From the NCBI GenBank assembly GCA_965221375.1, contig OZ244883.1, positions 892,409 to 956,408 of the forward strand: DNA of 64,000 nucleotides. The letters run 5' to 3'. Position numbers and translations under genes: made by a program. The notes beneath the pieces are model-generated. The model was not told where the DNA came from. It did no database searches and worked only from the letters and a program-made list of their open reading frames with translations. This document shows, in pieces, positions 33,103 to 56,463 of this stretch. This DNA is from an uncultured candidatus Porisulfidus sp. GTDB taxonomy: Bacteria > Pseudomonadota > Gammaproteobacteria > Poriferisulfidales > Poriferisulfidaceae. The first letter of the stretch is position 1; each line of letters opens with the position of its first letter.

Positions 33103-34302
33103 ATGCGAAGGATTTCCTCTTTATATTCACTAGCGCGAACCCAGCGCGGCGTTCGGAGGGAATTTTTCGTATTAGTGTTGCTGGCGTGTTGGATGGTGTT
33201 CACTGACGTGTGGGCAACAATTCCTCCACCATCGCCACCACCGCCGGTGACAAACCCGCGGCCGACACCGCCGAGCGTGACGGCCAATGCGGGTCCTGAC
33301 CAAACAGTAACCGGGGGCAGTCTGGTGCAGTTGAGTGGCACGACGGGGGCGGGGATCAGCGTGAGTTGGAGCCAGGTTGCCGGTCCTACAGTGGCACTGA
33401 GCAGTCTCTCATCGTCGGCGCCGACATTCCAGGCGCCGGCCACGAGTTCAAGCACGCAGACGTTGACGTTTCGTTACACTGCCAGCAGAAACTGGAGTTG
33501 GTGCCGCCGCTATGCACCTATTGGTGGTGGCTGTGCTGATACTGTCCACGAAACGGAAACAGCTTCGGATACAGTGGACGTGGTGGTACCTCCACCACCC
33601 TTGATTGCGGAGGCGGGTCCGGCACAAACAGTGGATTCGGGGACATTGGGGACGCTGTCGGGCTCGGCGAAAGGGGGCGAAGGGACGAGAAGTTACGCGT
33701 GGACGCAGACGGAGGGCTTGCCGATGGTGTTGCTTAGCGGTGCGGACCAAGCGAGCGCGAGTTTCACAGCGCCGCTGGTGACGGCACGCACAACGCTGAC
33801 GTTTAAGTTGACGGTTACGGCCGGGAGTGAAATATCAACGGATACCGTTCAAGTCACTGTGGCGGGCCCTGAGGTAGTGAGCGTGGCATTTACCTCTCGT
33901 CCTGCGGCAGGTAACACCTACAGGCTTGGCGAACGGATTCGCTCTCGGGTTGCGTTCGACAGGATTATGACTGTGTCCGGAAGCCCTGTATTGGCGTTGG
34001 AGATTGGCACACAAACCCGTTCGATGACGCATATAGGACTGACCAGAAGTCGAGTGTTGGATTTTGAATATCAGGTACAGGCATCGGATTTGGATACAGA
34101 TGGTATAAGCGTGGGTGAAAACGCGCTTTCCGTGTTGGCAGACACCTCAATAACCGACCATTTCGGTCGTCCGGCCATGCTGAGTTTGTCTGGTCACGAG
34201 ATCGTAAATCAGGCAGCTCGAAAAGTGGATGGGAGCCAGAGTTCGACTTTGCCAACAGGGGGGACTTTGCCTGCCTGCACTATGACCACTCCGGTTCTCT
34301 AG
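33103..34302 (+). CDS. Secreted PKD/Ig-like repeat protein (adhesin/adaptor), paralogue 1
   Basis: Signal peptide ending VWA, Pro-rich linker, two A.AGPDQTV..W.Q..GP.V.L PKD-like repeats, C-terminal Ig-like domain (TY..GE.I...FEYQVQASDLDTDGI). Confidence 0.75.
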   Translation: MRRISSLYSLARTQRGVRREFFVLVLLACWMVFTDVWATIPPPSPPPPVTNPRPTPPSVTANAGPDQTVTGGSLVQLSGTTGAGISVSWSQVAGPTVALSSLSSSAPTFQAPATSSSTQTLTFRYTASRNWSWCRRYAPIGGGCADTVHETETASDTVDVVVPPPPLIAEAGPAQTVDSGTLGTLSGSAKGGEGTRSYAWTQTEGLPMVLLSGADQASASFTAPLVTARTTLTFKLTVTAGSEISTDTVQVTVAGPEVVSVAFTSRPAAGNTYRLGERIRSRVAFDRIMTVSGSPVLALEIGTQTRSMTHIGLTRSRVLDFEYQVQASDLDTDGISVGENALSVLADTSITDHFGRPAMLSLSGHEIVNQAARKVDGSQSSTLPTGGTLPACTMTTPVL

Positions 34303-34432
34303 TTAGTAACTCGTTGTTGTGAAACTGCCCCTACGGAATAAGAAAGAGAAGCGAGGGACACTGGCGGGTAGCGCCGGAGGCTTGGGGCGGGCCGCTAGGC
34401 ACTTACGCCGGATTTCTCCTTTGTGTTTGCCG

Positions 34433-35905
34433 ATGTGTGTTGGTTGCGTTGTTGGAAGAAAATTTTTTGTGTGGGCGGTGCTGGTGGGCTGGATGGGGGT
34501 GGCCGACGTGCAGGCGGGAATTCCAGTGCCAAATCCGCCACCACTAGCGACGTATCCGACTCCGCCACCGCCGAGCATAATGATTGATGCGGGTATGGAT
34601 CAGACGGTGTCCGGAGGGAGCGTGGTGCAGTTGAGTGGCACAACGACAGGAGATAGCGCGAGTTGGAGTTTGAGTTGGAGTCAAACGGCCGGCACGACGG
34701 TGGCGTTGGAAAATCCCTCGTCATCATCGCCAACGTTTCAGGCGCCGGGTGTGAGTTCAAATCCCCAAGTGTTGACGTTTCGCTACGCTGCGAGTAGGGA
34801 TTGGAGTTGGTGCCGTCGTGAGGTGTCTGGTTCCTGCGTTGATACTGTCTACGAAACGTCGACGACTTCGGACATAGTGGATGTGACGGTAAGAGCGAGT
34901 CTGTCGGTAGTGGTGGAATCATATCAGACAGTGGGGTCGGGGGTGTCGGTATCGCTGTCGGGTTTGGCGACGGGAGGCAGCGAAACGAAGAGTTACACAT
35001 GGGTGCAGATGGGAGGATCATCAACGGTTGTACTCAATAATGCGAATCAGGCATCTGCGTATTTCACGGCGCCGACGGTGGCGGCACGTGCGACTCTGTC
35101 GTTCCAGTTGACGGTGACGGCGGGGAGCGAGATGTCGACGGACGTGGTGGACGTGTTGGTGTTGCCGCCGCCCGTCGTTGCGGAGGCGGGTTTGGCACAA
35201 ACGGTGGAATCAGGGGCATCGGTGACATTGTCAGGTTTGACGACATGGGGTGAAGGCTTAAAGAATTACTCGTGGGTGCAGACGGGCGGTTGGCCGACAG
35301 TGGCGCTCAGTGACGCAGACCAGATGTCGGTGAGTTTTATGGCACCGACGGTGGTGGTAATGACGGAGTTGGATTTCGCGCTGACGGTGGCGGACTTGTC
35401 GGGTTCGTCAACGGACACGGTGCGGGTGACGGTGTCGGCGAAGCCACCACAGGTGACGGGCTTATCGCTGGCATCGCGGCCAATATCAGGAGACAGGTAC
35501 AAGCAGGGAGAGACGATTCGAGTGCAGGTATGGCTGTCGGAGTTGGCAGTGGTGTCGGGGTCGCCGCAATTGGCGCTGGAGGTGGGTAATCAGACGCGGA
35601 CGATGAGTTACACAGGATTGGACCGGGCGCGAGTATTGGAGTTTGATTACACGGTGCAGGCATCGGACACGGATATAGATGGAGTCAGCGTTTGGAGCGG
35701 CGCGTTAAGTCTACCGTCAGGAGCATCGTTGATGGGAGAGGCTGGAGGAGTGGTGGGAGTGGACCTGTCGGCTCATGCAATTTTGAACGCTTCGGGACAC
35801 AAAGTGGATGGGGAACAGTCTGCGGTGTCGCCGTTGCCGAATCTGAATGAGTGTTCGAAGGAGGAGGTGAGTGTATTGAATCTTCCGGATCAGGGGAGCG
35901 ACTGA
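34433..35905 (+). CDS. Secreted PKD/Ig-like repeat protein (adhesin/adaptor), paralogue 2
   Basis: Signal peptide ending VQA, three PKD-like repeats plus same C-terminal Ig-like domain; stop overlaps RHS start (TGATG); start codon uncertain. Confidence 0.75.
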   Translation: MCVGCVVGRKFFVWAVLVGWMGVADVQAGIPVPNPPPLATYPTPPPPSIMIDAGMDQTVSGGSVVQLSGTTTGDSASWSLSWSQTAGTTVALENPSSSSPTFQAPGVSSNPQVLTFRYAASRDWSWCRREVSGSCVDTVYETSTTSDIVDVTVRASLSVVVESYQTVGSGVSVSLSGLATGGSETKSYTWVQMGGSSTVVLNNANQASAYFTAPTVAARATLSFQLTVTAGSEMSTDVVDVLVLPPPVVAEAGLAQTVESGASVTLSGLTTWGEGLKNYSWVQTGGWPTVALSDADQMSVSFMAPTVVVMTELDFALTVADLSGSSTDTVRVTVSAKPPQVTGLSLASRPISGDRYKQGETIRVQVWLSELAVVSGSPQLALEVGNQTRTMSYTGLDRARVLEFDYTVQASDTDIDGVSVWSGALSLPSGASLMGEAGGVVGVDLSAHAILNASGHKVDGEQSAVSPLPNLNECSKEEVSVLNLPDQGSD

Positions 35906-38900
35906 TGGGGTCGCGCTCGTTGGTTTTTCTGTTCCAAGCGGTAGCGGGCGTCTTGCTGCTGGGGGCGGAGACGGTATCCGCGGCGGCAGTATCGGGAACG
36001 TTGGATGGTGCGTTGTCGGTAGATCAGACGGGTTCGGCGGGGTATACGGTTCCAGTTGAGGTTCCGCCGGGGACGGCGGAGATGCAACCGTCGTTGTCGC
36101 TGTCGTACAACAGCAATGGTGGCAACGGGCTACTGGGTCAGGGTTGGACGCTGCAGGGCTTGTCCACGATCAGCCGTTGCCCGAAGACGAAGGCGCAGGA
36201 CAATGTGCGGGGGACGATCAATTACGATGCGGACGACCGGTTCTGCCTGGACGGGAGCCGCCTGATTGCGGTGCACGGGACATATGGGTCGAGTGGCGCG
36301 GAATATCGGACCGAGCTTGACAGTTTCGCGAAGGTGATTTCGATGGGCACAGTGGAGGGTGGTCCTCAGTATTGGGTGGTGTGGACAAAGTCGGGCCAGA
36401 AGATGGAGTATGGAAGAACGACATCATCGCGAGTAGAAGCGACGGGCCAATCGGCCGTGCGGCAGTGGAAGTTGAATCGGGTGGAAGATACGCTCGGGAA
36501 CTATCTGACGGTGACGTATATCGAGGCTGCGACGGACGGTTTTGCGTATCCGAGCCGAATCGACTACAGCGGTCACCAACAGGGGAACGTGAACCAGGCG
36601 CCGTATGCATCGGTACGTTTCAGTTACGAAGACCGACACGACGACATTGTGCTGATGCATGGTGGGCATAGGGTCAGCGTGGACAAGCGCTTAACCCATG
36701 CCAAGACCTACATTGGCGAGACGCTGGTCTCGGACTACCGACTGAGTTATTCTTCTACTGGTTTGCCTTACCCTTCGAGGATCGTTGGCATCCAGCGATG
36801 TGACGGGATGGGGGACTGCCTGCCGGGTGCCGATATGACGTGGAACAGTTTGGGCACGGGCACGATGAGTTCGGCGGAGCAGTTACGTTACATTGGTCAA
36901 ATCGACAGTTTTGTGGTCACGGGTGATTTTTCCGGCACCGGGCGGGAGCGTCTCTGGTTTACGAGGGCGCCTTCGGGGTACGCCGGATACGAACCGCTGG
37001 TTGGCGACTACGATGGGGATGGGGATTCGGACATTGCTTGGGTGAAGGCATCAAGCGCGGGGTTCTACTTTTATCTGAACGGAAGTTCGAGGAAAGTGTC
37101 AAGCGGATACTACGACGGCTATACCCCCCGGACAGGTGATTTCAACGGAGATGGTCGCACCGATGTGATCTGGACAAAGAAGAAAAGATATAGTTTCGGG
37201 TGGTGGGGTTTTACATACGTGTCCACGAATGTTTATATCAAAGTGGCACTGAGCAACGGTTCAGGTATCGGAGCCCCAATCCATATGGTGCGGGGCTTCA
37301 GTGGAGAACCCAACAGTTACGAAACCCAAGTCGGAGATTTCAATGGCGACGGTTTGTCCGATCTCGTTTGGAGCCGGGCCTACAATGGCGGCATTCAGAC
37401 CTACGTCAGTTTGGGCGACGGCTCAGGGGGACTTGGCGCACCAACGTTTACTGCAGTGAAGGCCACCGGAGACCACACGGGCTATAAGGCCGCGGTTCTA
37501 GATTTCAATGGCGATGGGCTTTTGGACATGGTCTGGACGAAAAGCCAAAACGGGGGTTTGCGCGCCTATGCGGCGATGGGGAAAGGTGACGGTAGTTTTG
37601 GATCGGTGCAGTATAGCGCACCTCGCACATCGGGAAATTACAGTGGCTATGAGTCGTTAATCGGAGACTTCAACGGAGATGGGTTAATGGATTTGGCGTG
37701 GGCCACGAAATCTAATTCCAGCCGGCATGTCAGCGTGTCTTTTGGGGACGGAACAGGTTTTTTTCAAGCGGCACATGATAGTTCAATTGGTTCGCTTCGC
37801 AGTCAAAGAGAGGACATTTTGAATGTCAATCATACCCAATCGCCGGTAGCCATCGACTTTGACGGAGACGGGGTTTCCGAAATCTTCTGGAGGTCTTGGA
37901 TCAGGTACAGATATACGTATACATCTACATATCAAACTCCTTTTAGTTGTCCGGGGGTGTGGATATCGCAATATACCTGCAGGGCAGAATTTTCCTTTAA
38001 AAGAAATACTTGGGCGGTTCATTATGCAACCAGCACAGTTCCGAAGGGCTATGGCCGGATTGCCACGATTGATACGGGCAATGGGACGACGTTTAATATG
38101 GAATATGAGTCTCTATCGGCGAGTTCCGTGAATATTTATACCAAGGACAGTGACGACGACCTGTGCAGTTTGCCGTGCCGCGATATTCAGATGCCTCTCC
38201 AAGTGGTCAAGGAGGTCATAAAGGACCATGGTGATGATCTGACGGAGCAGATCAGTTATCGATATGGAGGCGCAAAAACGGACCTCAATGGGCGGGGATT
38301 CAAGGGTTTCCGATGGATGGAGTTGACAGACGTACGGACTGGCATCGTTTCCCGTACCGAATATCAGCAAGATTTCCCTTATATCGGACAAGTCAAATCA
38401 AGCAGCCGCTACGTTGATACCTCCCCTCAGACCCTTCTGCATACGGAGGCCAACACCTGGGCAAGCCTTTCTCTGAACGACGGTAAGACGCAGTTTCCAT
38501 ATATTTCATCAAGTGCGGCGGCAACCTACGAGATGGAGGCTGGGCCGGGTAACAGTGCGGTGACGACAGTGACGAACGCGAGTAGCTACGACAGTTACGG
38601 CAACCCGATTGAGATCACGGTGACGACAACGGGAGCGGGAGGCACGTACCGGAAGGTGACGACGAACACTTACACGAATACGATGGTGAACTGGCGTCTG
38701 GGCCGTCTGGCGTGTGCGCAGGTGCGTTCGGAGACACCGACGGTGGCGGTGACACGGACTTCGGGGTTCGCCTACAGTTCGGTGACGGGACTGTTGACAA
38801 AGGAAGTGGTTGAACCGAGTCCGGGAGTGATCAGCGGGTGCGTGTCGGCATTGTCGGCAGCGGAGTTGAAGGACATATCCTTGATCACGACGTACCAGCA

Positions 38901-41900
38901 CGATGCTTACGGGAATCGCCGACAGTCGACGATTCGTGGAGGTGGGATCACCTCGCGTTCGAGTGCGACGGTGTGGGGCGAGCGGGCCAGTTGCGGAGCG
39001 GTGACGGCAAATGGACGTTTTCCCGTATCGGTGAGCAACGCGCTGGGCCATGTGGCAGAGAGTTGGTATTCGGGGGCGTTTGGAAAGTTGCTGCAGAGTC
39101 GGGACGCGAACGGGCTGGAGTTGCGTCAGGAGTATGACGGTTTTGGGCGCCTGATTCGTGTGGTGCATGCAGACGGTCGACAGGAGGTGGTGCAGTATCG
39201 GGACTGCACGGACATGGGCTTGTCTTGTCCCCCTCAAGCGGTGCGAGCAATTTTGACGGACCGCACGGGAGCGGCGTCGGTAATCAGTTATGTGGACCGG
39301 CGAGGCTTGGTAGTGCGCACGGAGACGGAAGGTTTTGATGGGACGGCAGTGTATCAGGACACGGAGTATGACGCGGCGAGCCAAGCCGTGCGGAAGTCGC
39401 GGGCGTATTACGCGGGAGAGGCGGCGCAGTGGAGTCAATACACTTATGACAAGTTGGGCCGGGTGAAGAGCGAGACGTTGCCGAATGGGAGTGTGACGAC
39501 GACGAATTATGACGGATTGGTAGGAGGTTGGATTCAGCAGCGGGTGAGCGTGCAGGTCTCAAGTACAGCGACGGCACGGACGACGACGCGAGAGTACGAC
39601 GCGCGGGGTATGACGGTACGGATGATTGATCCGCTGGGGAGCGAGACGCGTTTCGAGTATACGGAGTATGGCAAGCAGAAAAAGGTGACGGCGGCGAACG
39701 GTTCGGTGACGGAGCGGAGTTTCGATTTGCGGGGGCGGCTGCTGTCGGAGACGGATCCGGACCGAGGGATGCGGACGTACCGCTACAACGCACTGGACGA
39801 ATTGGTATCGAAGACGAATGCGCGGGGTCAGACGACCACATTTGTGTATGACTTGCTGGGTCGATTGGTGCGGCGATCGGAGGCGGAAGGCACGACGGTG
39901 TGGGTGTATGACGCCTCAAGCACGGGCAAAGGTCGCCTGGCGCAGGTGTCGGGTCCGGATGGCTATTTGCGCACGCATGCGTATGACGCCTATGGGCGCC
40001 CGTTGAGAGAGACAGCGACAATTGGAAGGGAGCGTTTTACGACGGCCCGAACGTATGACGCGGCAGGTCGGGTGGCGACGACAACTTATCCAGGGAGTGG
40101 GCTGGTGGTGCGTCATGAGTATACGGCGACGGGCTACTTGGAGAAAGTTCGAAAGGATGCTTCGTGCGGGACGGTGTATTGGACGGCGGAAAAGGTGGAT
40201 GCGGAAGGTCGGGTAGAGGAGTCGCTACTAGGCAATGGAGTAGGCACAACACGAGTGTTCGATCCGCTGACGGGTTTGGTTCAGAGCATCCAGTCGGGTT
40301 TGGGCGAGACCTCGGGGGTGCAGGATTTGGGGTATGTGTTCGATGCGTACGGAAACTTGACCATGCGGGAAGATTTCGCGCAGGATGTGTATGAGAGTTT
40401 CACGTATGACACGCTGAACCGGTTGACAGGTTCGGAGCTGAAGAACGCGGGGACGGAGGCGTTATTAGCGAACAAAAATTATCGCTACGATGCGGTGGGG
40501 AATCTGATAAACAAGTCGGATGTGGGGGCGGCAGACTATGTTTATGGGGCGGGCGATGCGGGTCCGCATGCGGTAACGTCGGCGGGGGACTATGTCTATA
40601 TTTACGATGCCAGCGGAAATATGGTGTCGGGAGCCGGACGGACGCTGACATGGACGAGCTTCCAGAAGCCGCGAACGATAGCGAAAGGGTCGACCGTGAG
40701 CACGTTTGAGTATGGGCCGGACCGGGGACGGGTAAGGCAGGTGAAAGTGAAGGGCGCGGTGACGGAGATTCTCACTTATGTGGGCGGGCTGTATGAGCGG
40801 GTGGAAAAGACGGGTTCGGCGATGGAGCATGTGCACTACGTGTTCGCAGGAGGGGCGCGGGTTGCAATAGAGACGGCGAGCGAGTCGGCGGGCTCAAACG
40901 TGAAGTTGCGCTATCTGCACATGGACCACTTAGGTTCAGTGGATGTGGTAACAAACGAGTTGGGAGAGGTTGTGGAACGGCTGTCTTTTGGAGCGTTTGG
41001 AGAACGGCGGGTTGCGCAGGGCACGGCCACTTGGCAGGACTTGGCACTGGCATTATCTTCAGCGGAAACGCGGCGGGGTTTCACTGGCCACGAGCAACTG
41101 GACGACTTTGGTTTGGTGCACATGAACGGGCGAGTGTATGACCCGCACTTGGGGCGTTTCCTCAGTGCGGATCCATTTGTACAGTTTGCCCTTTCGTCGC
41201 AGGGCTACAACCGCTATACCTACGCCGGCAACAACCCGTTGTCGTATACCGACCCCAGCGGATATTTCATTAAGTCGCTGTTCCGCAAAGTCGCGAGGTT
41301 GGTCAAGAAGGTTTTCAAAAGTTCGGTGTTTCGAACCGTCGCTGCGGTGGCGTTTGCTGTTTATGGGGGGCCAGCTGGAGCAAAGTTGCTAGGCATGGCG
41401 GAAAGTGCTTTCGTGGAAGGTGCGATCGGAGGGTTCGGGGCAGGATTAATTTCAAGCGGAGGCGATATCAAGTCGGCCTTTGTTGGAGGATTGAGTGGGG
41501 GCGCGTTGGGATTTGTTGGAGGCAGTGAATTATTTGAGCTGGCATCAAGTCGCGCAGTCGCGCATGGTGCCGTTGGTGGGGTTTCCTCAGAGTTGATGGG
41601 TGGCAAGTTCGGGGAAGGATTCTTGTCGGCAGGGTTCTCAAGTCTGGCGGCTCCCCAGATAGACAAATTTAATTTCGACGAAAAGGCAGCCCGTATGATA
41701 ACGACGGCTGTTGTCGGTGGTACAGCGTCTGTACTCGCTGGCGGGAAATTCGCCAATGGGGCAAAAACCGCTGCCTATCTGCAATTGTTTGTGGAAATTG
41801 CAAACTTTTATGCAGTTTATACGGGCACAACCGCAGATTGGCGCCCAGGGAAAAATTACGAAAAAACTAAATTTAAAGTTGTGGACGAGAGGAATGGCTT

Positions 41901-48460: not shown

Positions 48461-48467
48461 AAACGTG

Positions 48468-50169: not shown

Positions 50170-50603
50170 GGTGTTCCATAAAGATTTTTCACTTTTCCAG
50201 CCCGCGAGAGCGATCGCGAGGGTTTTCCTTGGTCGAGATTTTGGCAGCGTTCACAATTCTCGGATTGTTCGTGGCAACGGCGTTTCAGGCGTTTTCTATG
50301 GGGATGACTGCCAGTATACGAACCGGAGAATATGCAAAGGCTCAAATTCTCGCAAAGTCGAAGTTGGAAGATCTTGCAGAATCAGATTTGTTGATGCCTG
50401 GCGAAAATGAAGGCCAGATCACGTTGGGCGATGAGGAGCAAATATTCCGATGGCGTACAAGGATTGAGAACGGGCGCCAAGAGACACAAGGCTCGTTGAC
50501 CCCCCTGCAGGCAATAGTTGAGGTGACTTGGGATAGCGAAAGCGCTTTATCTGTGCCGGGAGCATTTGAACTACATGCGCTTCTGATTTCAGAAAAATCA
50601 TGA
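50166..50603 (+). CDS. gspI: T2SS minor pseudopilin I
   Basis: RG/FSLVEILAA; ATGA overlap with gspH stop. Confidence 0.88.
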   Translation: MRCSIKIFHFSSPRERSRGFSLVEILAAFTILGLFVATAFQAFSMGMTASIRTGEYAKAQILAKSKLEDLAESDLLMPGENEGQITLGDEEQIFRWRTRIENGRQETQGSLTPLQAIVEVTWDSESALSVPGAFELHALLISEKS

Positions 50604-51220
50604 GAAACTATTCCCGCACCCAAGGATTTACTCTTCTGGAGCTCTTAGTTGGTATTACTCTTTTTGCATTGATTTCTGCGGCAGTTTACGGGGTTTTAAA
50701 TACTGCAGGAAAGCTTTGGGAACGCGGGGATCAGCAGGCTGTAGCAAATACCCAGATACGGTTTGCTCTTGATTACATGCGGCGTCAAATGTCCAGGACT
50801 TTGCCGGTGGCAACTCCAGTGGATGGGAGTTGGAAGGTATGGTTCGAAGGCGAATCCCACAGAGTTCGTTTCCTTGTCAAAGGACCTCGACATGTCGGGC
50901 TGCATGGGTTTTACGAGACTGTGATTTTCCACAATAGGGAAGTCATTCCTCCCCGCATAGACTTGGAAATGCGCCGAATCGACAAAAAAACAGCACAGAG
51001 TGTTTTTCGGAAGACCTTACTAGAAGACATTCCGGAAGTCAGCTTTGAATATTTTGGAGTTTACGACGGAGAAGATAAGATGATATGGGCGTCGCAGTGG
51101 CAAGAGCATCAGTCTCTGCCTCGATTGGTGCGTGTGCAGTTGAATAGTAACATCACTGGAGAATGGCCGGAACTCACGGTCCGGTTGCCTACGGATGCCA
51201 TACGATACCACCAATTTTAA
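50600..51220 (+). CDS. gspJ: T2SS minor pseudopilin J
   Basis: QG/FTLLELLV, W...W...LPRLVRV. Confidence 0.88.
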   Translation: MRNYSRTQGFTLLELLVGITLFALISAAVYGVLNTAGKLWERGDQQAVANTQIRFALDYMRRQMSRTLPVATPVDGSWKVWFEGESHRVRFLVKGPRHVGLHGFYETVIFHNREVIPPRIDLEMRRIDKKTAQSVFRKTLLEDIPEVSFEYFGVYDGEDKMIWASQWQEHQSLPRLVRVQLNSNITGEWPELTVRLPTDAIRYHQF

Positions 51221-52019
51221 ACAGCGCGGAGTCGTGCTTGTTTGGGTTTTGTGGGTGGGCACACTCTTGAGCTTGATTGCTGCGAGTTACGCTTTCGGAG
51301 TGAAGACGGGAACAGTTTCGGTGACTAACGCGGGCCAGCGCCTACAGGCTGAAGCATTGGCTGAATCGGCCGTCAATATGGCGATTCTCGAATTGCTTGA
51401 AATGGATGGCGCCATGCGCTGGAGAATTAATGGAGAGTTGCAGCAGAGGCCGTTTGGAGGAGGCGCATCAAGCTATGTTGTGCATGCAGAAACCGGCAAG
51501 ATTAATCTCAATATGGCACAGGAAGAAGTTATCAAAAAATTGGGAGTGGCGGACCTTGATATGGAAATAGCACGCCGTAGAGCAAGTCGGCCCCAAGCAT
51601 TTCTGTCTGCCGATGAGTCGGAGGTGCCGGACAAGATTTTGCCAATTATCACGATCTATTCGGAAACCGGAGCGATTGATCCTGTAGTGGCTTCTCGCGA
51701 CGCATTGTTGGCTGTTCCCGGTCTTGACGAAAGAGCCGTGGATACGTTTCTTCGTGAACGGGAGGTTCGAAAAAAGGGTGACGCCATTACCCATAACGAA
51801 GTGGCTCAGGAAATTGCTCCTTTGCTGAAAGACGGGAAGCAGTTTTTAGCAATTCTACCGGCACGGTATTACACTGTTTCTGCAAAGGGGGTTACGGAAG
51901 ACAGGGTTGCATCTTTTGTCCAAGCCATTGTCAAAATAACTCCCGATGCGATTCCCGCCTATCAAGTGCTTTCATGGCGAACCGGCCCCGAAGTGGAAAT
52001 CCCAGACAACCTGCAATAA
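51195..52019 (+). CDS. gspK: T2SS minor pseudopilin K
   Basis: QRG/VVLVWVLW lacking E+5, GKINLN, HhH-like ALLAVPGL. Confidence 0.85.
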   Translation: MPYDTTNFKQRGVVLVWVLWVGTLLSLIAASYAFGVKTGTVSVTNAGQRLQAEALAESAVNMAILELLEMDGAMRWRINGELQQRPFGGGASSYVVHAETGKINLNMAQEEVIKKLGVADLDMEIARRRASRPQAFLSADESEVPDKILPIITIYSETGAIDPVVASRDALLAVPGLDERAVDTFLREREVRKKGDAITHNEVAQEIAPLLKDGKQFLAILPARYYTVSAKGVTEDRVASFVQAIVKITPDAIPAYQVLSWRTGPEVEIPDNLQ

Positions 52020-52028
52020 ACCTTTAGT

Positions 52029-53099
52029 ATGACAATCATCGACATCAAGAATAGTGTCCTAAAGTTTTTGGATTGGTGGTGGAAAGGATTGGCCGAAACC
52101 ATGCCTCCTGCTTTTCTTAAGTTTTGTTCAGAGAGAGGAGACAAGCTTAACTTCGACATTTCATCGGGTCAGGTTCGAATATGGAAGACAAGGGATCGCA
52201 AAAAAAGTGATTTCGTCGAGGTTTCCATGGACAAAGTGGAAGATTTCGACAGTTATGAAATCGCAGATTTCAGGCCCGCATGTACGACTTTGGAAATGAA
52301 AATATCTCCGGAGCTTGGACTGATAAAGGAGGTTGAGTTGCCGTTGGCTGCTCGGGAGAATTTGAGGCAGGCCTTAGCCTATGAAATGCACAGGTTCACG
52401 CCATTTTCTGCAGATGATGTGTACTACGATTACCAAACCATGGAGGAAACGGATCACTTGATAAGAGTTCGTCTTGCTGTGGTTCCGAGACGGCTTGTTA
52501 GGAAGGCAACGCGGTGGCTTTCCAGCTGGGATTTGCAGTTTGTGCCCAGAATCACATCATGGCGTCCGGAAGATGCTCATGAAAGCAAAATCATTTTCAG
52601 GTTTCGTGAATCAAGATATCGATTCTGGCGCATGCGCAAAGCGAGCGCTTTCTTGCTTGCCGCCAACTTAATTTTGGCTACTTTCGTTGTTGCATTGCCT
52701 CTAGTTTTGGAGCAAGACCGCCTCAATAGTCTGCACGCCGAATTAGCCCAACTTCATAATGAACTAGAACAGTACAGCGACACATACGGTCGCACGGAAG
52801 ATCTGGAGAAGAGGAGAGAGTTCTTTGCCTCGCAAGTTGACGCACGAGTCAGTGCTTTACAGTTGCTTGAAGTGCTGACAAATCAGTTTCCAGACGACAC
52901 ATGGATTATGCAACTGGAGTTACGCGAAGGTATGCTGCACCTTCAGGGTTATTCTTCCAAGGCAACCTCCTTGGTGGGCATCCTGGAGTCTTCTTCCATG
53001 TTTGACAATCCCCAGTTTTCATCGCCGGTCATCCGAGATGAGACTATGGGGAAAGACCGCTTTCACTTGTCTGTGGGTGTCACTGCAGGGGGATCGTGA
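52029..53099 (+). CDS. gspL: T2SS protein L (XpsL/PilN-like)
   Basis: FLDWWW, LPLAARENL.QAL..E..RFTPF, single TM, FPDDTWI, QFSSPV. Confidence 0.85.
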   Translation: MTIIDIKNSVLKFLDWWWKGLAETMPPAFLKFCSERGDKLNFDISSGQVRIWKTRDRKKSDFVEVSMDKVEDFDSYEIADFRPACTTLEMKISPELGLIKEVELPLAARENLRQALAYEMHRFTPFSADDVYYDYQTMEETDHLIRVRLAVVPRRLVRKATRWLSSWDLQFVPRITSWRPEDAHESKIIFRFRESRYRFWRMRKASAFLLAANLILATFVVALPLVLEQDRLNSLHAELAQLHNELEQYSDTYGRTEDLEKRREFFASQVDARVSALQLLEVLTNQFPDDTWIMQLELREGMLHLQGYSSKATSLVGILESSSMFDNPQFSSPVIRDETMGKDRFHLSVGVTAGGS

Positions 53100-53668
53100 T
53101 GAGGCGGGCTATATTCCATAGAGTGCTTGCTTGGGCACTCTTGTTATTTGTTCTATTCACAATATTTCTTGTTGGAATACTCCCATTGTGGAACAGTTAT
53201 CAGACGACAAGACTGGCGGCGAACGAAGCCCAAAGGCAAGTCGCGACAGCTCAGAAAGCAATCGCGGATGTGGAATATTTGATGGCGCAGCCGGAATCCC
53301 AGTTTGAGGCAATTGATCGTTTTCTACTTCCTGGAGATAGTCAAACTTTGGCGGCTGCCGCTCTACAAAGTCGGGTTGAAACACTTGTAGACCAGCGAGG
53401 CGGGCAAATATTCAGCATTCACACAATTCTGGGTGAAAAACAACAGGACCTAGCCCAGGTTTCGATTCGTATTCGCTTGGCTCCCACCACATCGGTTCTT
53501 CAACAGATTCTATTTGACTTGGAGGGTCAACTGCCATTGTTGACCATTGATTACTTGAAATTGGTTTCTCATGGTGGCCATGAGCTATACATTGATTCTC
53601 CTCTCAATGCCGAAATTCAAGTATCCGGATGGTGGGCACCTGTACCCATGAAGAATCACGATGCGTAA
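53096..53668 (+). CDS. gspM: T2SS protein M
   Basis: N-terminal TM, coiled coil, AAAALQSRV, L..ILFDLE...PLL.ID; position after gspL. Confidence 0.8.
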   Translation: MMRRAIFHRVLAWALLLFVLFTIFLVGILPLWNSYQTTRLAANEAQRQVATAQKAIADVEYLMAQPESQFEAIDRFLLPGDSQTLAAAALQSRVETLVDQRGGQIFSIHTILGEKQQDLAQVSIRIRLAPTTSVLQQILFDLEGQLPLLTIDYLKLVSHGGHELYIDSPLNAEIQVSGWWAPVPMKNHDA

Positions 53669-54311
53669 TTGGGGACAGTTGCTTCTGATGTTGGGATTGG
53701 CGTCTGTGCTAATCATAGAGGCAGTGGGGCTGACTAAAGACTCGGAAAGTGACTTTGACCCGGTGTCATTAAGAAGTTTTTCTGTACAAAGCTTGGATTT
53801 CAAGCCGATGTCCAGGCCGCCTCAACTTACGGCGCGGCCTTTATTCCGAAAAACGCGTCGTCCGCCGGAAATCCCTGTCTTGGACGAGGTGCCTCCCATT
53901 GAGGAAATACCACAGGCCACCCCTCCGGCACCTCAAGAGATCCCAGAACTAGTGCCTACATTCCGCCATAAGCTCACGGCTGTGACAATCACTGGAAACG
54001 AATCTGTAGCGTACATGGTTAATCCCGTGAATCTCGATTTGATCCGCTTGGAAAAGGGAAACCAGATTGATGGTTGGGTCCTGCATGAAGTGCATCCGGA
54101 TGCAGTAGTGCTAGGATACGGAACCGAACAACGAGTCCGTCTTGAATTGTGGGCAGACGAACACGACGAAGATTTTTCTGTACCTCTAAGTGGAAACCAG
54201 GATGCGCAAGGCGATTTTGAACACTTCCAAGGAGAATTTTCTTCCCCGGAACTTCGCCCCGCTGAACCGCCAAGGCGTCCCGTGCGGGGACCACGCTCTC
54301 GTGTGCGATAA
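53661..54311 (+). CDS. T2SS XpsN/GspC-like protein
   Basis: N-terminal TM, RPLF..TRRP, Pro-rich linker, G..IDGW.L.EV..D.VVL; between gspM and gspD as in xps clusters. Confidence 0.65.
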   Translation: MRNWGQLLLMLGLASVLIIEAVGLTKDSESDFDPVSLRSFSVQSLDFKPMSRPPQLTARPLFRKTRRPPEIPVLDEVPPIEEIPQATPPAPQEIPELVPTFRHKLTAVTITGNESVAYMVNPVNLDLIRLEKGNQIDGWVLHEVHPDAVVLGYGTEQRVRLELWADEHDEDFSVPLSGNQDAQGDFEHFQGEFSSPELRPAEPPRRPVRGPRSRVR

Positions 54312-56463
54312 GGCTAGCATCGGCAAGCAGTGCCTCATAGGGGCCTGCCTCTTGATATTTTCAGGGTGTCAAACACTGGATGACACTTTCTATACCGTAT
54401 TTGATCACACTTCGCCTTCGACCCAGTCGGATGTAAGTAATGAGTCTCAAGAAGAACCTGCAAGTTCTCCGACCCCATCGCGACCCGATCCCCAATTCGT
54501 CGAGCTGGGAACGGGAGAATTTGCGGAGATCAAGGAGCCGGACGAAAGAGCAGGAGTGACCACGGGGCCAGCGACATTGAATTTTAATAACACCTCGATT
54601 GCGGATGCGGTAAAAGTTATTTTGGGGGACCTTCTGGGGAAAAATTATGTTATTGATCCGCAAGTTCAAGGCACAGTGACTCTGAATACTGCCGAACCGG
54701 TCGCGCAAGAAGACTTGTTGCCTACACTGGAATTGCTGCTACGGATGAACGATGCAGCCGTCGTGCTCCAGCGGGATATTTATCGAGTCATCCCTCGCCA
54801 TCAGGCAGGTCAGGAACTGCGCATTCCTCAAATCGGAGACAGCAGCGTACCTTTACCGGCGGGAAACACCATTCGCATCGTACCTATCAAGCATATCGCT
54901 GCCAGTGAAATGGCAGGGATATTGGAGCCTTTTGCTCCCGCTGGAAATATTGTTCGTGTTGATACTTCGCGCAATTGGCTCTTATTGATGGGCGATACCA
55001 TGGAGTTGGACAGCCTGGTTGAAACGGTTCGCATCTTCGATGTGGATTGGCTGAAAGGGTTGTCATTCGGCTTGTTTACGCCTGACTTTGTTCAGGCGGA
55101 TGTTTTGGCGAATGAGTTGTCGGGTATTTTTGGCAAGAAATCTGAGGGTCCGCTTGCGGGGTTGGTACGAATCAAAGTCATCAAACGTATGAATGCCTTG
55201 CTGGTGGTTTCGCCTCGTCCGGAATATCTCAAGAAAGTGGAAAATTGGATAGAGCGTCTGGATGTGGATCAGGGAACGGAAGAGCAAGGTCTCTTTGTCT
55301 ATCAGATTCAACATGGGAAGGCGAGCGACTTGGCGGATGTTCTTGCTCAAGTGTTTGATGATCCAGAGATCGATGGAGGAGTGGGTGCGGCGGAATTGGC
55401 TCCCGGGTTGGAACCTGTGGAACTTTCGAGTGAAATGGAGGGCTCCCCACAGTTGTTTCTGCCTGGTTCTCTGGAGAATCCTTCTGTCTCAGGGGCGGGA
55501 ATATCCAAAGGAGGGAATAATTCCCTTCGAATTATTCCAGATAGCGTTAATAATGTCTTGCTTATCCGGGCAACATTCCGGCAGTACCGGCAGGTTATAG
55601 AAGCCCTACGAAAGATTGATATTGCCCCACTTCAGGTACTTATCGAAGCAACGATTGCCGAGGTGTCTTTGACAGGTGAATTTTCTTTAGGGTTGGAATG
55701 GTTTTTGAAGACTGGATTGAGCGGAGATCGAACCGGGGATGCGCAACTAGATCTTAACGCGTCTGGCATTGGGGCGACGACAGGGTTTTCCTATGTAATC
55801 AGAAGTTCTAATGATATCCGCTTTGTTCTCAATGCACTGGCATCGGACTCGCGACTTAACATTATTTCTTCTCCCAGCCTAATGGTATTGAATCATCAGG
55901 AGGCTAGTATCCAAGTCGGGGATCAAGTGCCGATTACAACGCAACAGCAGCAAGCTACTGCGACTGACTCAAACATCATTAACAACATCGAATTTCGTGA
56001 TACGGGCGTCCTGTTGAATGTTCGTCCACGTGTGAATGCCAATGGCTTGGTGGTTATGGAAATTGAGCAGGAGGTGAGCGACGTGGCTCCGAACAGCGGT
56101 AACAGCCTGACTCCGACAATCCAGCAACGCAAGATCAATAGCACGGTCGCGGTACAGAGCGGAGAGACCGTTGTACTTGGTGGATTGATTCGCGAAAATA
56201 AATCTGAATCTGAATCTGGGGTGCCGGGCCTATCGAAAGTGCCTGGTTTGGGCTTTTTGTTCGGTGCAAGTAATGATACCAGCCGTCGTACGGAACTGGT
56301 GGTTCTCATTACGCCACGTGCCGTGCGCGACCCAAGTGTTTCTCGTGAAATTACCGAAGAATTTCGTGAGCGTATGGGAAGTCTTAAACCACTTTTCAGG
56401 CCAAAATCGGAAGAGAAACAAGACTCTGTTTCAGGACAAGACTCGGGCGATCCGGAAATTTGA
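54301..56463 (+). CDS. gspD: T2SS secretin with lipoprotein signal peptide
   Basis: N0 LNFNNTSIAD, N3 IIPDSVNNVLL, QVLIEATIAEV, GGLI..PGL.KVPGLG.LFG, RTELVVLITP; GTG start at 54301 gives LLIFSG-C lipobox. Confidence 0.93.
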   Translation: MCDKASIGKQCLIGACLLIFSGCQTLDDTFYTVFDHTSPSTQSDVSNESQEEPASSPTPSRPDPQFVELGTGEFAEIKEPDERAGVTTGPATLNFNNTSIADAVKVILGDLLGKNYVIDPQVQGTVTLNTAEPVAQEDLLPTLELLLRMNDAAVVLQRDIYRVIPRHQAGQELRIPQIGDSSVPLPAGNTIRIVPIKHIAASEMAGILEPFAPAGNIVRVDTSRNWLLLMGDTMELDSLVETVRIFDVDWLKGLSFGLFTPDFVQADVLANELSGIFGKKSEGPLAGLVRIKVIKRMNALLVVSPRPEYLKKVENWIERLDVDQGTEEQGLFVYQIQHGKASDLADVLAQVFDDPEIDGGVGAAELAPGLEPVELSSEMEGSPQLFLPGSLENPSVSGAGISKGGNNSLRIIPDSVNNVLLIRATFRQYRQVIEALRKIDIAPLQVLIEATIAEVSLTGEFSLGLEWFLKTGLSGDRTGDAQLDLNASGIGATTGFSYVIRSSNDIRFVLNALASDSRLNIISSPSLMVLNHQEASIQVGDQVPITTQQQQATATDSNIINNIEFRDTGVLLNVRPRVNANGLVVMEIEQEVSDVAPNSGNSLTPTIQQRKINSTVAVQSGETVVLGGLIRENKSESESGVPGLSKVPGLGFLFGASNDTSRRTELVVLITPRAVRDPSVSREITEEFRERMGSLKPLFRPKSEEKQDSVSGQDSGDPEI

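What the first reader, a model, noticed from the sequence alone, without database searches (positions are those of the whole stretch)
33103..56463. Candidate undescribed system: T2SS-coupled, Sec-exported RHS toxin container with adaptors, lipoprotein immunity and a private Lnt
Seen: one contiguous island holds two secreted PKD/Ig proteins, a signal-peptide SpvB/FG-GAP/RHS protein, a lipoprotein immediately downstream, a second lnt, an exported Cu-monooxygenase and gspGEFHIJKLM-N-D. No PAAR/VgrG, TcA, TpsB or holin is present. Established: RHS/Tc-BC toxins are known to leave via T6SS, lysis, T9SS or Gram-positive Sec; T2SS exports folded periplasmic proteins. Inference: the shell folds with disulfides in the periplasm, exits via the linked T2SS, and is targeted by its own propeller and the PKD adaptors instead of TcA. 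I do not recall this pairing being described, but linkage in one window is not proof.
Basis: partly seen in the sequence, partly recalled or inferred. Interest (0 to 1): 0.85.

Follow-up and report, generated by a model that had tools for sequence, protein, structure and literature searches.

The report
Type II secretion-linked RHS toxin locus
A sponge-symbiont-like bacterium encodes a giant signal-peptide RHS toxin, its partner proteins and its immunity protein beside a type II secretion machine; the same pairing recurs, rearranged, in relatives and in unrelated bacteria, which supports an already proposed but still unproven export route for such toxins.

Summary

[quoted passage not shown] In the closest clade (nearest named relative: Candidatus Porisulfidus), T2SS and PKD-RHS are adjacent in four arrangements. 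The commonest is a collinear gspG..D, PKD, PKD, RHS. Some relatives separate them.

Among 78 other RHS-homologue loci, GspF/E/D-type genes were the most recurrent specific neighbours, seen in Pelagibius, Acidiphilium, Duganella and Herbaspirillum. That is about 5 GspF genes against 0.4-0.8 expected.

- **PKD proteins:** they always directly precede the RHS gene, and PKD domains are fused into some homologues.
- **Small lipoprotein:** it co-varies with the toxin domain, so it is the immunity protein.
- **"Private Lnt":** not supported. lnt2 is the orthologue of the clade's ordinary lnt.
- **"Cu-monooxygenase":** only a sub-threshold hint.
- **"Undescribed":** not correct. Xanthomonas Bcn-A (xpsD-dependent), gspG-linked Rhs families (2025 preprint) and Zhang 2012 came first.

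Verdict: a new variant of a known, still unproven kind. Passage of the folded shell through the secretin is untested.

The parts
31477..32979 (+). lnt1, an apolipoprotein N-acyltransferase at the end of the miaB-phoH-ybeY-corC-lnt block. It sits directly upstream of PKD-A on the same strand. This is context, not a demonstrated part of the system.
   Evidence: LNT_N + CN_hydrolase. TIGR00546 at 266 bits. Catalytic motifs kept. Best relatives are only 61-62% identical.
33103..34302 (+). PKD-A, a secreted PKD/Ig-domain partner protein of the RHS toxin.
   Evidence: K319L-like_PKD, E 3e-16. One to three such genes directly precede the RHS gene in every clade locus whose upstream side was visible.
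34319..35905 (+). PKD-B, a second PKD/Ig partner protein. Its TGA stop overlaps the RHS ATG (TGATG).
   Evidence: K319L-like_PKD, E 8e-26. Junction sequence read. PKD domains are fused into homologues P0002/3/5/6/7, and P0005 has a PKD-protein-like N-terminus.
35905..42249 (+). RHS toxin container: a single polypeptide with signal peptide, SpvB, FG-GAP propeller, TcdB_midN, RHS shell, the autoprotease motif (RVYDPHLGRF...NPLSYTDPSGY) and a 328-aa C-terminal cargo.
   Evidence: Pfam and NCBIfam. P0001 is 2114 aa. Matches PDB Rhs and TcdB2-TccC3 chains. Motif residues are invariant in alignment A1.
35905..35982 (+). Sec-type signal peptide of the RHS protein (MGSRSLVFLFQAVAGVLLLGAETVSA).
   Evidence: Read from the sequence. 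Comparable signal peptides start most homologues, ahead of the conserved SpvB start.
41263..41802 (+). Glycine-rich hydrophobic module that follows the DPSGY cleavage motif. It is DUF637-like and is inferred to be a membrane-insertion or translocation segment.
   Evidence: Shared by dozens of family members whatever their terminal toxin. Weak DUF637 hit, E 4.5e-4, below the cutoff. Several homologues carry PF04830.
41797..42246 (+). Variable C-terminal toxin domain of unknown fold. It has an invariant HD pair and N114 (domain numbering) and a hydrophobic terminal helix.
   Evidence: Homologous C-termini in P0002/3, P0040, P0052, P0011, the L029 orphan and others. AlphaFold model at pLDDT 67 with no Foldseek, PDB-sequence or Pfam match.
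42257..42604 (+). Immunity lipoprotein (lipobox LLSC, Asp at +2). An alternative start at 42233 would overlap the RHS stop.
   Evidence: Homologues lie directly after P0003 (L090, 42% identity) and after the L029 orphan C-terminus. Both carry the same toxin domain. All three have a lipobox and two conserved Cys.
42733..44256 (-). lnt2, an apolipoprotein N-acyltransferase and the orthologue of the clade's ordinary lnt. It is adjacent to the AhpC-like gene in relatives as well.
   Evidence: TIGR00546 at 261 bits. 62-64% identical to the lnt in L001 and L003, against 50% to lnt1. 76-81% identical to P0267/69/71.
44342..46168 (+). Exported AhpC/TSA (thioredoxin-fold) protein with a CxxCH motif and a C-terminal domain of uncertain type. 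It is conserved with the module.
   Evidence: Pfam. PDB 2ywi and 2cvb. Weak Cu2_monoox_C and Haem_bd hits. Orthologues at 70-71% lie next to lnt and PKD-RHS in L001 (two copies) and L003. An AhpC-TSA protein lies between gspD and PKD in L087.
46358..56463 (+). xps-type type II secretion cluster: gspG, E, F, H, I, J, K, L, M, an XpsN/GspC-like gene, and gspD.
   Evidence: T2SSG, T2SSE, T2SSF, GspH, N_methyl, T2SSJ, PilN, T2SSM_b, Secretin with its N0 domain. Weak GspK hit. The L087 orthologue of the 216-aa gene hits XpsN weakly. GspD is 83-87% identical across about 15 relatives.

Best explanation
This is a polymorphic RHS toxin/immunity module of the signal-peptide SpvB-propeller-RHS class, a fused TcB/TcC-like container. 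It is genetically coupled to the organism's xps-type type II secretion system.

**Shown by sequence and comparison**
- The RHS protein has a Sec-type signal peptide and a complete shell with the conserved C-terminal autoprotease motif.
- It carries a 328-aa cargo, made of a conserved glycine-rich DUF637-like module and a variable toxin domain.
- A co-varying lipoprotein immunity gene follows it.
- One or more PKD/Ig genes precede it. In the window the PKD-B stop overlaps the RHS start.
- The T2SS cluster is a conserved neighbour across rearrangements.

**Inferred**
- The precursor is exported by Sec and folds in the periplasm around its cleaved cargo. It associates there with the PKD proteins.
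- It is then pushed out through the GspD secretin as cluster-encoded cargo. Known T2SS clusters often carry their own substrate genes in this way (my own knowledge, not checked here).
- Outside the cell it acts without TcA, as a diffusible or surface-held bacteriocin-like particle. The propeller and PKD domains bind a target, and the glycine-rich module carries the toxin domain into or across a target membrane.
- The immunity lipoprotein protects the producer's own envelope. Its Asp at +2 suggests it stays at the inner membrane, by the E. coli sorting rule.
- The AhpC/TSA-like exported redox protein probably helps oxidative folding or protection in the periplasm.
- The adjacent lnt is most likely the general Lnt, not a dedicated one.
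For: **T2SS and PKD-RHS are adjacent in the clade, in four arrangements.**
- Window: PKD, PKD, RHS, immunity gene, lnt2 (minus strand), AhpC-like gene, then gspG..D.
- OZ243950, Candidatus Porisulfidus: gspE..D, PKD, RHS.
- L084 and L089: gspG..D, PKD, PKD, RHS, collinear with gaps of about 150-250 bp.
- L087 (RHS 45% identical): gsp..D, AhpC-like gene, PKD, RHS.
- L085 (GspD 59%, RHS 47%): the RHS gene is divergent, about 400 bp from gspE.
- Matching contig lengths suggest two more pairs: P0129/P0009 and P0132/P0005.

**The association recurs outside the clade.**
- T2SS or T2SS-like E/F/D/G genes lie within the flanks in 7 of 78 RHS loci from reference genomes (GTDB, the collection scanned) outside the clade.
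- These include Pelagibius (E, F, G, I, L, about 3 kb downstream), Acidiphilium iwatense (E, F, about 1 kb upstream), and Duganella and Herbaspirillum (F, E, a PilN-like gene, a secretin and pseudopilins, about 0.5 kb downstream). L029 has a lone gspG.
- In unbiased neighbour clustering, GspF, GspE and GspD were the top specific families. Only IS200-like transposases and ABC ATPases ranked higher.
- Five GspF genes were found in 0.94 Mb of flank, against 0.4-0.8 expected (Poisson P 8e-5 to 2e-3).

**Literature.**
- Xanthomonas Bcn-A is an RHS bacteriocin found in supernatant, and its activity is lost in an xpsD mutant (PMC7259588).
- Xanthomonas and Ralstonia Rhs families are linked to gspG (10.1101/2025.05.08.652813).

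**Other support.**
- Signal peptides are a family-wide feature.
- In Bacteroidota homologues, a small protein with a type IX secretion (T9SS) sorting tail sits exactly where the PKD genes sit here. This suggests that the exit route matches the lineage.
- Toxin and immunity co-vary.
Against: - No experiment was done, and the organism is uncultured.
- Some close relatives carry lnt / AhpC-like / PKD / RHS with no T2SS within 10 kb (L003). L004 and L090 carry the RHS without a visible T2SS.
- One related T2SS has no RHS within 10 kb (L086). One homologue sits in a prophage/IS region (L088).
- These small genomes probably have a single, highly conserved T2SS. Only one GspD from the 1.85-Mb chromosome was listed. 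So the T2SS is probably general-purpose, not dedicated to the RHS.
- Size is borderline. A T6SS-type Rhs core alone measures about 100 x 60 Å. That is about the width of the T2SS endopilus (at least 60 Å) and above the 55-Å effector CbpD. This protein adds an SpvB domain and a propeller.
- The expected gene densities used in the enrichment estimate come from general knowledge, not from these genomes.
- The Duganella and Herbaspirillum clusters look more like a type IV pilus / T2SS hybrid than a canonical Gsp system.
Confidence: 0.55

Rival explanations
1. The neighbourhood carries no secretion link. The T2SS is the cell's general secreton, and the RHS module, a mobile and recombination-prone element, merely sits next to it. 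After Sec export the RHS protein would be released by vesicles, lysis or an unidentified route, or would act from the periplasm or cell surface.
For: - RHS modules occur without a nearby T2SS in L003, L004, L090 and L088.
- A related T2SS occurs without an RHS gene in L086.
- IS elements, integrases and orphan C-terminal cassettes surround many RHS loci.
- GspD is far more conserved than the RHS protein (83-87% against 63-70%), as expected of a housekeeping machine.
- The folded shell is at or above the known width of T2SS cargo.
Against: - The adjacency survives at least four different rearrangements.
- It recurs in unrelated Alpha- and Betaproteobacteria, at roughly ten times the expected rate.
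- The collinear, tightly spaced gspD-PKD-PKD-RHS layout looks like one transcription unit.
- Loss of xpsD abolishes the activity of an RHS bacteriocin in Xanthomonas.
Confidence: 0.25
2. The PKD/Ig proteins are the real T2SS cargo. They would act as surface adhesins or matrix binders of a sponge symbiont. The RHS protein would remain attached to the producer's surface through them and would work only by cell contact, not as a free particle.
For: - PKD genes lie between gspD and the RHS gene in the commonest arrangement.
- PKD/Ig modules are typical binding domains.
- PKD number and size vary between relatives, from 281 to 833 aa and one to three genes.
- Homologues carry many other adhesion-type domains, such as fn3, Calx-beta and Big.
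Against: - PKD genes follow the RHS gene, not the T2SS, when the two are separated (L003, L090).
- PKD domains are fused into the RHS protein in several homologues. A fused PKD would have to travel with the RHS protein.
- Outside the clade, T2SS-RHS adjacency occurs without any PKD genes.
Confidence: 0.15

Closest known systems
Tc toxin B-C subcomplex (TcdB2-TccC3 of Photorhabdus, YenB-YenC of Yersinia entomophaga)
   Same: - SpvB N-terminal domain, TcdB_toxin_midN, a beta-propeller and an RHS/YD shell.
- A C-terminal aspartyl autoprotease motif with an enclosed C-terminal toxin.
   Different: - One polypeptide instead of two.
- It has a Sec signal peptide.
- No TcA was found in the window or in any locus examined.
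- It has an expanded FG-GAP propeller.
- An immunity gene and orphan C-terminal cassettes are present, as in interbacterial polymorphic toxins.
- It is linked to a T2SS.
Xanthomonas perforans bacteriocin Bcn-A, and the gspG-linked Rhs families XRhs F VIII and RRhs F II
   Same: - These are RHS-family antibacterial toxins with a downstream immunity gene.
- Bcn-A activity is found in cell-free supernatant and is lost in an xpsD (GspD) mutant.
- The two families are genomically linked to a T2SS gene and are predicted to be T2SS cargo.
- L029 here shows the same lone-gspG pattern.
   Different: - Bcn-A is 1398 aa and needs accessory ORFs 2 and 4.
- The papers report linkage to gspG, not to a whole gsp operon.
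- No PKD partner genes, no adjacent lnt and no AhpC-like gene are described there.
- Homology between those accessory ORFs and the genes here was not tested.
"TcdB/TcaC" trafficking class of polymorphic toxins (Zhang et al. 2012, Biol Direct 7:18)
   Same: The architecture is exactly the one listed there: a signal peptide, then SpvB, an integrin-like beta-propeller and RHS repeats, with variable C-terminal toxins across many phyla. More than 4000 homologues were found here.
   Different: In the passages read, that catalogue names no outer-membrane exit route for the class. Here a T2SS is the recurrent neighbour in Proteobacteria, and a T9SS-tailed partner in Bacteroidota.
T6SS Rhs effectors (RhsA, Tse5, Tse15, Salmonella bongori Rhs)
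   Same: An RHS core shell, C-terminal autocleavage, and a polymorphic toxin with an immunity partner. These gave the best PDB sequence matches (8qja at 6e-31, Tse5 at 2e-26).
   Different: - T6SS effectors carry no signal peptide. They use PAAR, VgrG or prePAAR N-termini and ride the T6SS spike.
- None of those parts is present here.
WapA (Gram-positive, Sec-exported RHS toxins) and T9SS-linked RHS or teneurin-like proteins of Bacteroidota
   Same: A Sec signal peptide on an RHS toxin, and an exit route that matches the cell-envelope type of the lineage.
   Different: WapA has no outer membrane to cross. In the Bacteroidota homologues found here, a small Por_Secre_tail protein gene sits directly upstream, in place of the PKD genes and T2SS.

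Membership tests
RHS/YD-repeat polymorphic toxin | Multiple RHS/YD repeats forming the shell | tested here: met
   PF05593 in 8 stretches, E 4e-35. TIGR01643, E 9e-28.
RHS/YD-repeat polymorphic toxin | RHS-associated core with the C-terminal autoprotease and cleavage motif (R.YDP..GRF ... DPxG) | tested here: met
   TIGR03696 at 65 bits against a cutoff of 32.5. R1743, D1746, G1750, R1751, F1752, D1756, D1783, P1784 and G1786 are invariant in 27 homologues. Cleavage itself was not tested.
RHS/YD-repeat polymorphic toxin | Variable C-terminal toxin with a cognate immunity gene directly downstream | tested here: met
   The same toxin domain is followed by the same lipoprotein family in the window, in L090 and in L029. 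Other C-termini are followed by unrelated ORFs.
Tc toxin (ABC) complex | TcB-type N-terminus (SpvB, mid/N region, beta-propeller) | tested here: met
   SpvB 2.5e-17, TcdB_toxin_midN 2.9e-17, FG-GAP 1.9e-26 and FG-GAP_3 6.3e-27. YenB matches at 6e-6 over residues 30-203.
Tc toxin (ABC) complex | A TcA translocator encoded with B and C | tested here: not met
   No TcA-type family was hit in the window. None appeared in the Pfam tables of the 14 looked-up loci. No recurrent large neighbour family appeared in the clustering.
Tc toxin (ABC) complex | Separate TcB and TcC polypeptides without a signal peptide | tested here: not met
   This is a single 2114-aa ORF with an N-terminal signal peptide.
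Type II secretion system (Gsp/Xps) | Secretin GspD with N0 and secretin domains | tested here: met
   PF00263 1.7e-51, Secretin_N 4e-27, type_II_gspD_N0 2e-14.
Type II secretion system (Gsp/Xps) | ATPase GspE, platform GspF, and assembly proteins GspL and GspM | tested here: met
   T2SSE 1e-145, T2SSF 1e-54, a PilN-like domain in the 356-aa protein, T2SSM_b 8e-17.
Type II secretion system (Gsp/Xps) | Major pseudopilin GspG and minor pseudopilins H, I, J and K | tested here: met
   T2SSG 2e-35 and GspH 8e-9. I and J hit N_methyl, and J also has a weak T2SSJ hit. K has only a weak NCBIfam GspK hit, E 1e-6, below its cutoff.
Type II secretion system (Gsp/Xps) | GspC/XpsN inner-membrane linker to the secretin | tested here: inconclusive
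   The 216-aa ORF at 53661-54311 has no Pfam or NCBIfam hit. Its positional orthologue in L087 has a weak PF28060 XpsN hit.
Type II secretion system (Gsp/Xps) | Prepilin peptidase GspO/PilD | tested here: not met
   Not in this cluster or among the ORFs scanned in the window. It is present next to the related clusters in L085 and L032. It may lie elsewhere in the genome.
T2SS substrate | Sec or Tat signal peptide for periplasmic entry | tested here: met
   N-terminal signal sequences were read on the RHS protein, PKD-A, PKD-B and the AhpC-like protein. They are conserved across RHS homologues. They were judged by eye because no predictor was available.
T2SS substrate | Extracellular release that depends on gsp genes | not testable with these tools
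   This needs a secretome of wild type against a gspD or gspE mutant, or a reconstitution. The only support here is genomic linkage and literature precedent.
Apolipoprotein N-acyltransferase (Lnt), and the claim that lnt2 is a dedicated ("private") copy | Lnt family membership with the catalytic E-K-C motifs | tested here: met
   Both copies score above the TIGR00546 cutoff. Both keep WPE, K..LVPxGE and CYE.
Apolipoprotein N-acyltransferase (Lnt), and the claim that lnt2 is a dedicated ("private") copy | An extra paralogue that accompanies the toxin module in addition to a housekeeping lnt | tested here: not met
   - Clade relatives' lnt genes are closer to lnt2. P0269, P0271 and P0267 are 76-81% identical to it, and the lnt in L001 and L003 is 62-64% identical.
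- lnt1 has no relative above 62%.
- Only one lnt from the complete 1.85-Mb relative chromosome appeared among the 120 best hits.
- Caveat: that list is not exhaustive. lnt2 itself was not listed.
Copper type II ascorbate-dependent monooxygenase (PHM/DBH-like) | Match to the Cu2_monoox domains above threshold | tested here: inconclusive
   PF03712 at E 0.013, 15.5 bits against a cutoff of 23, C-terminal domain only. No PDB sequence match for the C-terminal 390 aa. The N-terminal part is clearly AhpC/TSA thioredoxin-fold.
Bacterial lipoprotein (the immunity protein) | Signal peptide ending in a lipobox with an invariant Cys | tested here: met
   LLSC, LFSC and LASC align in the three homologues.

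The most novel reading that the evidence does not exclude
Sec-exported SpvB-propeller-RHS containers may follow a general rule. They would leave Gram-negative cells as folded particles of about 230 kDa, through whichever periplasm-to-outside machine for folded proteins the lineage has: the T2SS in Proteobacteria and the T9SS in Bacteroidota. A small protein encoded directly upstream would recruit them, PKD/Ig proteins here and a T9SS-tailed protein in Bacteroidota. The Porisulfidus-type operon gspG..D-PKD-PKD-RHS would then be a self-contained secretion-plus-cargo unit. It would also be the largest T2SS cargo known.
Probability: 0.3. Interest if true: 0.75.

Novelty: new variant of a known kind. 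Interest (0 to 1): 0.58.

Why it matters
Signal-peptide RHS containers are very common. More than 4000 homologues with this architecture were found. How they cross the outer membrane has not been shown experimentally.

The T2SS route has been proposed from gspG linkage and from one secretin mutant. It has not been functionally confirmed.

The loci found here, especially the collinear gspG..D-PKD-PKD-RHS units and the culturable carriers, offer compact and testable constructs. A positive result would raise the known size limit of T2SS cargo. It would explain how TcA-less, Tc-like shells are deployed. It would also identify weapons used by sponge-associated sulfur-oxidising symbionts.

Tried and rejected
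- **Exact-sequence look-up of lnt2** found nothing, probably because the ORF-list start codon is wrong.
- **Function of the variable toxin domain.**
  - Pfam at relaxed threshold gave nothing.
  - A PDB sequence search gave only a chance ribosomal hit at E 0.55.
  - An AlphaFold model from an 11-sequence alignment reached pLDDT 67. Its Foldseek search against the PDB had no hit below E 2.9.
  - The fold therefore stays unknown.
- **Cu-monooxygenase reading of the 608-aa protein** rests on a sub-threshold hit only. A structure prediction was not attempted, because only close relatives were available for the alignment.
- **Promoter and terminator scan of 32.8-46.8 kb** found no more sites than shuffled sequence does. 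It says nothing about operon structure.
- **GC contrast as a sign of separate acquisition** (T2SS about 50%, PKD-RHS 56%) was rejected. The same contrast, or a larger one, exists in relatives where the genes are collinear.
- **"Private Lnt"** was rejected.
- **T6SS, TcA or two-partner-secretion delivery** was rejected for lack of any such gene.
- **Shell diameter against the secretin lumen** could not be computed. The protein exceeds the 1200-aa limit for modelling and no coordinates are returned. Only literature dimensions were compared.
- **Not used:** the metagenome scan and the representative-protein search, because the other collections gave enough.

Full report
**What is in the window**

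It lies in core chromosome. Upstream are prs, fusA/tuf, a ribosomal protein gene (rplB), secY, rpoA, uvrA and miaB-phoH-ybeY-corC-lnt1. Downstream are ilvB, ilvN and ilvC.

The gene order is:
- lnt1 (31477-32979).
- PKD-A (33103-34302) and PKD-B (34319-35905).
- The RHS gene (35905-42249).
- A small ORF (42257-42604).
- lnt2 on the minus strand (42733-44256).
- An AhpC/TSA-like gene (44342-46168).
- gspG-E-F-H-I-J-K-L-M, a 216-aa XpsN/GspC-like gene, and gspD (46358-56463).

The PKD-B stop overlaps the RHS start codon (TGATG).

The RHS protein's database copy is 2114 aa and begins with a Sec-type signal peptide, MGSRSLVFLFQAVAGVLLLGAETVSA. It contains SpvB, FG-GAP repeats, TcdB_toxin_midN, RHS repeats and the RHS-associated core. 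Its best matches among solved structures are T6SS Rhs proteins, TcdB2-TccC3 and YenB.

**Anatomy of the toxin**

An alignment of 27 homologues shows invariant residues of the C-terminal autoprotease and cleavage motif (RVYDPHLGRF...NPLSYTDPSGY). It also shows conserved cysteines in the SpvB part: C299 and C305 are invariant, and C92 and C114 are nearly so. These cysteines are compatible with periplasmic disulfides but do not prove them.

The 328 residues after DPSGY have two parts.
- **The first ~180 residues** form a glycine-rich hydrophobic module. Dozens of family members share it, whatever their terminal domain. It gives a weak DUF637 hit (E 4.5e-4, below the cutoff). DUF637 is also listed for several homologues. 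I infer a membrane-insertion or translocation role.
- **The last ~150 residues** form a variable domain with an invariant HD pair and a hydrophobic terminal helix. Neither sequence nor structure searches assigned it a known fold.

The small downstream ORF is the immunity protein. Homologues sit directly after P0003, which has the same toxin domain (immunity 42% identical), and after an orphan C-terminal cassette in an alphaproteobacterial MAG (metagenome-assembled genome). All three have an aligned lipobox (LLSC, LFSC, LASC) and two conserved Cys. RHS genes with other C-termini are followed by unrelated proteins, several of them also lipoproteins or membrane proteins. This points to toxins that act on the cell envelope.

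**Is the T2SS link real?**

The RHS family is very large: more than 4000 hits share this architecture. The nearest named relative is a 1.85-Mb chromosome of an uncultured Candidatus Porisulfidus. The one paper that names this genus in its abstract reports the genome and associated microbial metagenome of a carnivorous sponge.

Within this clade, T2SS and PKD-RHS are neighbours in four different layouts.
- The window's own layout.
- gspE..D, PKD, RHS in Porisulfidus, beside a second convergent RHS gene, IS elements and orphan cassettes.
- gspG..D, PKD, PKD, RHS, collinear and tightly spaced, in two further metagenomic relatives.
- gsp..D, AhpC-like gene, PKD, RHS in a relative whose RHS is only 45% identical.

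In another relative the RHS gene is divergent, about 400 bp from gspE (GspD 59% identical, RHS 47%).

There are counter-examples. Three relatives have the RHS with no T2SS within the visible flanks; one of them, L003, shows the full lnt / AhpC-like / PKD / RHS set. One related T2SS has no RHS gene. One homologue lies in a prophage/IS region.

**Beyond the clade**

A scan of one genome per species returned 79 loci. I called ORFs in them and searched with the window's proteins.
- T2SS-type genes lie within the flanks in 7 of the 78 loci outside the clade.
- Pelagibius has a prepilin peptidase gene, then gspE, F, G, I and L, starting about 3 kb downstream of the RHS gene.
- Acidiphilium iwatense has E and F about 1 kb upstream.
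- Duganella and Herbaspirillum have F, E, a PilN-like gene, a TPR/STN/cohesin secretin and pseudopilins, about 0.5 kb downstream.
- One MAG has a lone gspG divergent from the RHS gene.
- Two more loci have secretin or GspF genes at their edges.

In an unbiased all-against-all clustering of about 1200 neighbouring ORFs, GspF (7 loci, counting the window and the clade), GspE and GspD were the most recurrent specific families. Only IS200-like transposases and generic ABC ATPases ranked higher.

Five GspF-family genes were found in 0.94 Mb of flank. With 2-4 such genes per 4.5-Mb genome, 0.4-0.8 would be expected (Poisson P about 1e-4 to 2e-3). The assumed density comes from my general knowledge, not from these genomes. 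Duganella and Herbaspirillum are not independent of each other.

In five Bacteroidota loci, a small protein with a T9SS sorting tail is encoded immediately upstream of the RHS gene. This is the position the PKD genes hold here.

**The accessory genes**

- **PKD proteins.** PKD genes follow the RHS gene rather than the T2SS when the two are apart. PKD domains are fused into the closest RHS homologues, and P0005 starts with a PKD-protein-like N-terminus. A physical partnership is therefore likely. Whether it serves secretion, targeting or both is inference.
- **AhpC/TSA-like protein.** It is conserved with the module. Orthologues at 70-71% lie in the Porisulfidus locus (two copies) and in L003. 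In the 45%-identity relative, an AhpC-TSA protein sits between gspD and PKD. Only its thioredoxin-fold N-terminal half is identified with confidence. The monooxygenase reading rests on a 15.5-bit hit.
- **The two lnt genes.** They flank the PKD-RHS-immunity block in opposite orientation, and both look catalytically intact. lnt2 has close orthologues (76-81%) and matches the single lnt seen next to the module in relatives. lnt1 has no relative above 62%. The adjacency of an lnt to this module is conserved. The evidence favours the clade's ordinary Lnt over a dedicated one.
- **GC content.** The lower GC of the T2SS relative to PKD-RHS is also seen where the genes are collinear. It is not a sign of separate acquisition.

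**Prior knowledge**

- Zhang et al. 2012 list a "TcdB/TcaC" class of polymorphic toxins: signal peptide, SpvB, integrin-like propeller and RHS.
- Marutani-Hert et al. 2020 showed that the RHS-family bacteriocin Bcn-A of Xanthomonas perforans is found in supernatant. Its activity is lost in an xpsD mutant.
- A 2025 preprint reports 180 Xanthomonas and 56 Ralstonia Rhs toxins linked to gspG. It predicts T2SS translocation and states that this is not functionally confirmed.

The pairing is therefore not undescribed. What is new here:
- A whole T2SS operon is collinear with the cargo genes.
- The cargo is the SpvB/propeller (TcB/TcC-like) class.
- PKD partner genes, an AhpC-like gene and an lnt come with it.
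- The association extends to sponge-symbiont-like Gammaproteobacteria and to Alpha- and Betaproteobacteria.

**Mechanism and caveats**

The most likely sequence of events is this.
1. Sec exports the precursor.
2. It folds in the periplasm and cleaves itself around its cargo.
3. It associates with the PKD proteins.
4. The T2SS expels it.
5. The propeller and PKD domains bind a target.
6. The glycine-rich module delivers the toxin domain into or across the target membrane.
7. The immunity lipoprotein protects the producer's envelope.

Steps 1, 2 and 7 follow from sequence features and family knowledge. Steps 3 to 6 are inference.

The main physical doubt is size. A T6SS-type Rhs core alone measures about 100 x 60 Å. 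That is roughly the width of the T2SS endopilus (at least 60 Å) and above the 55-Å effector CbpD. This protein adds an SpvB domain and a propeller.

I put the T2SS-cargo reading at about 0.55. Incidental neighbourhood with another release route gets about 0.25. A variant in which the PKD proteins are the cargo and the RHS stays surface-tethered gets about 0.15.

Noticed in passing
L050:7678-8238, L061:8979-9851, L068:858-1295, L075:9434-9868, L079:3128-3571: In five Bacteroidota loci, a small protein with a T9SS C-terminal sorting domain (Por_Secre_tail) is encoded immediately upstream of the SpvB-RHS homologue on the same strand. This is the position the PKD genes hold in the window. It may be a secretion adaptor suited to that lineage.
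   Followed up: partly
window 31477-32979 and 42733-44256: Two intact lnt genes flank the PKD-PKD-RHS-immunity block in opposite orientation. The copy in the canonical corC-lnt position (lnt1) is the divergent one, with best relatives at only 61-62% identity. lnt2 has orthologues at 76-81%. This suggests a duplication or inversion around the RHS module.
   Followed up: partly
window 41263-41802 (RHS residues 1787-~1966): A glycine-rich hydrophobic module of about 180 aa lies directly after the RHS cleavage motif. Dozens of homologues with different terminal toxins share it. It hits DUF637, the CdiA pre-toxin region, only weakly. It could be a shared translocation device.
   Followed up: partly
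window 44342-46168; L001:1668-5312; L003:3676-5415; L087:6726-8465: An exported protein of about 600 aa is conserved with the RHS/lnt/T2SS neighbourhood and is duplicated in the Porisulfidus chromosome. In the window it has an AhpC/TSA thioredoxin-fold half with a single Cys, a CxxCH motif and an unidentified C-terminal domain of about 330 aa (weak Cu2_monoox_C hit). Its function is unknown.
   Followed up: partly
L046:9299-18241 and L074:3404-11156: In Duganella and Herbaspirillum, a type IV pilus / T2SS-like cluster lies directly downstream of the RHS homologue. It comprises GspF, GspE, a PilN-like gene, a secretin with TPR, STN and a C-terminal cohesin domain, and pseudopilins. It is not a canonical Gsp system.
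   Followed up: partly
L086:12621-22097: A related T2SS (GspD 61% identical) has no RHS gene nearby. Instead it is followed by a radical-SAM/PqqD/ScmC-like set and a giant 4542-aa CLIPPER/SdrD_B/Peptidase_C25 protein. This may be a different cluster-linked cargo.
   Followed up: no
L001:16372-20706 / L002:17178-21512: In the Porisulfidus chromosome, two convergent full-length RHS genes enclose IS elements (DDE_Tnp_1, DUF772), an orphan 623-aa RHS shell/C-terminal cassette and small ORFs. This is a typical toxin-cassette exchange array.
   Followed up: no
L059:9848-26184: In a Steroidobacteraceae MAG, an RHS homologue lies next to the same uvrA / miaB-phoH-ybeY-corC-lnt housekeeping block that precedes the window's module. 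This could be a coincidence or a shared insertion site.
   Followed up: no
window 46358-56463 compared with 33103-42249; L084, L089, L002, L087: The T2SS genes have consistently lower GC than the adjacent PKD-RHS genes: 50% against 56% in the window, and 50-53% against 64-68% in close relatives. The window's PKD-RHS block is about 8-12 points lower in GC than its orthologues.
   Followed up: partly
window 3445-4377: A D12-class N6-adenine DNA methyltransferase gene sits in a dip of GC content (about 51%) between prs and the fusA/tuf-ribosomal protein region.
   Followed up: no
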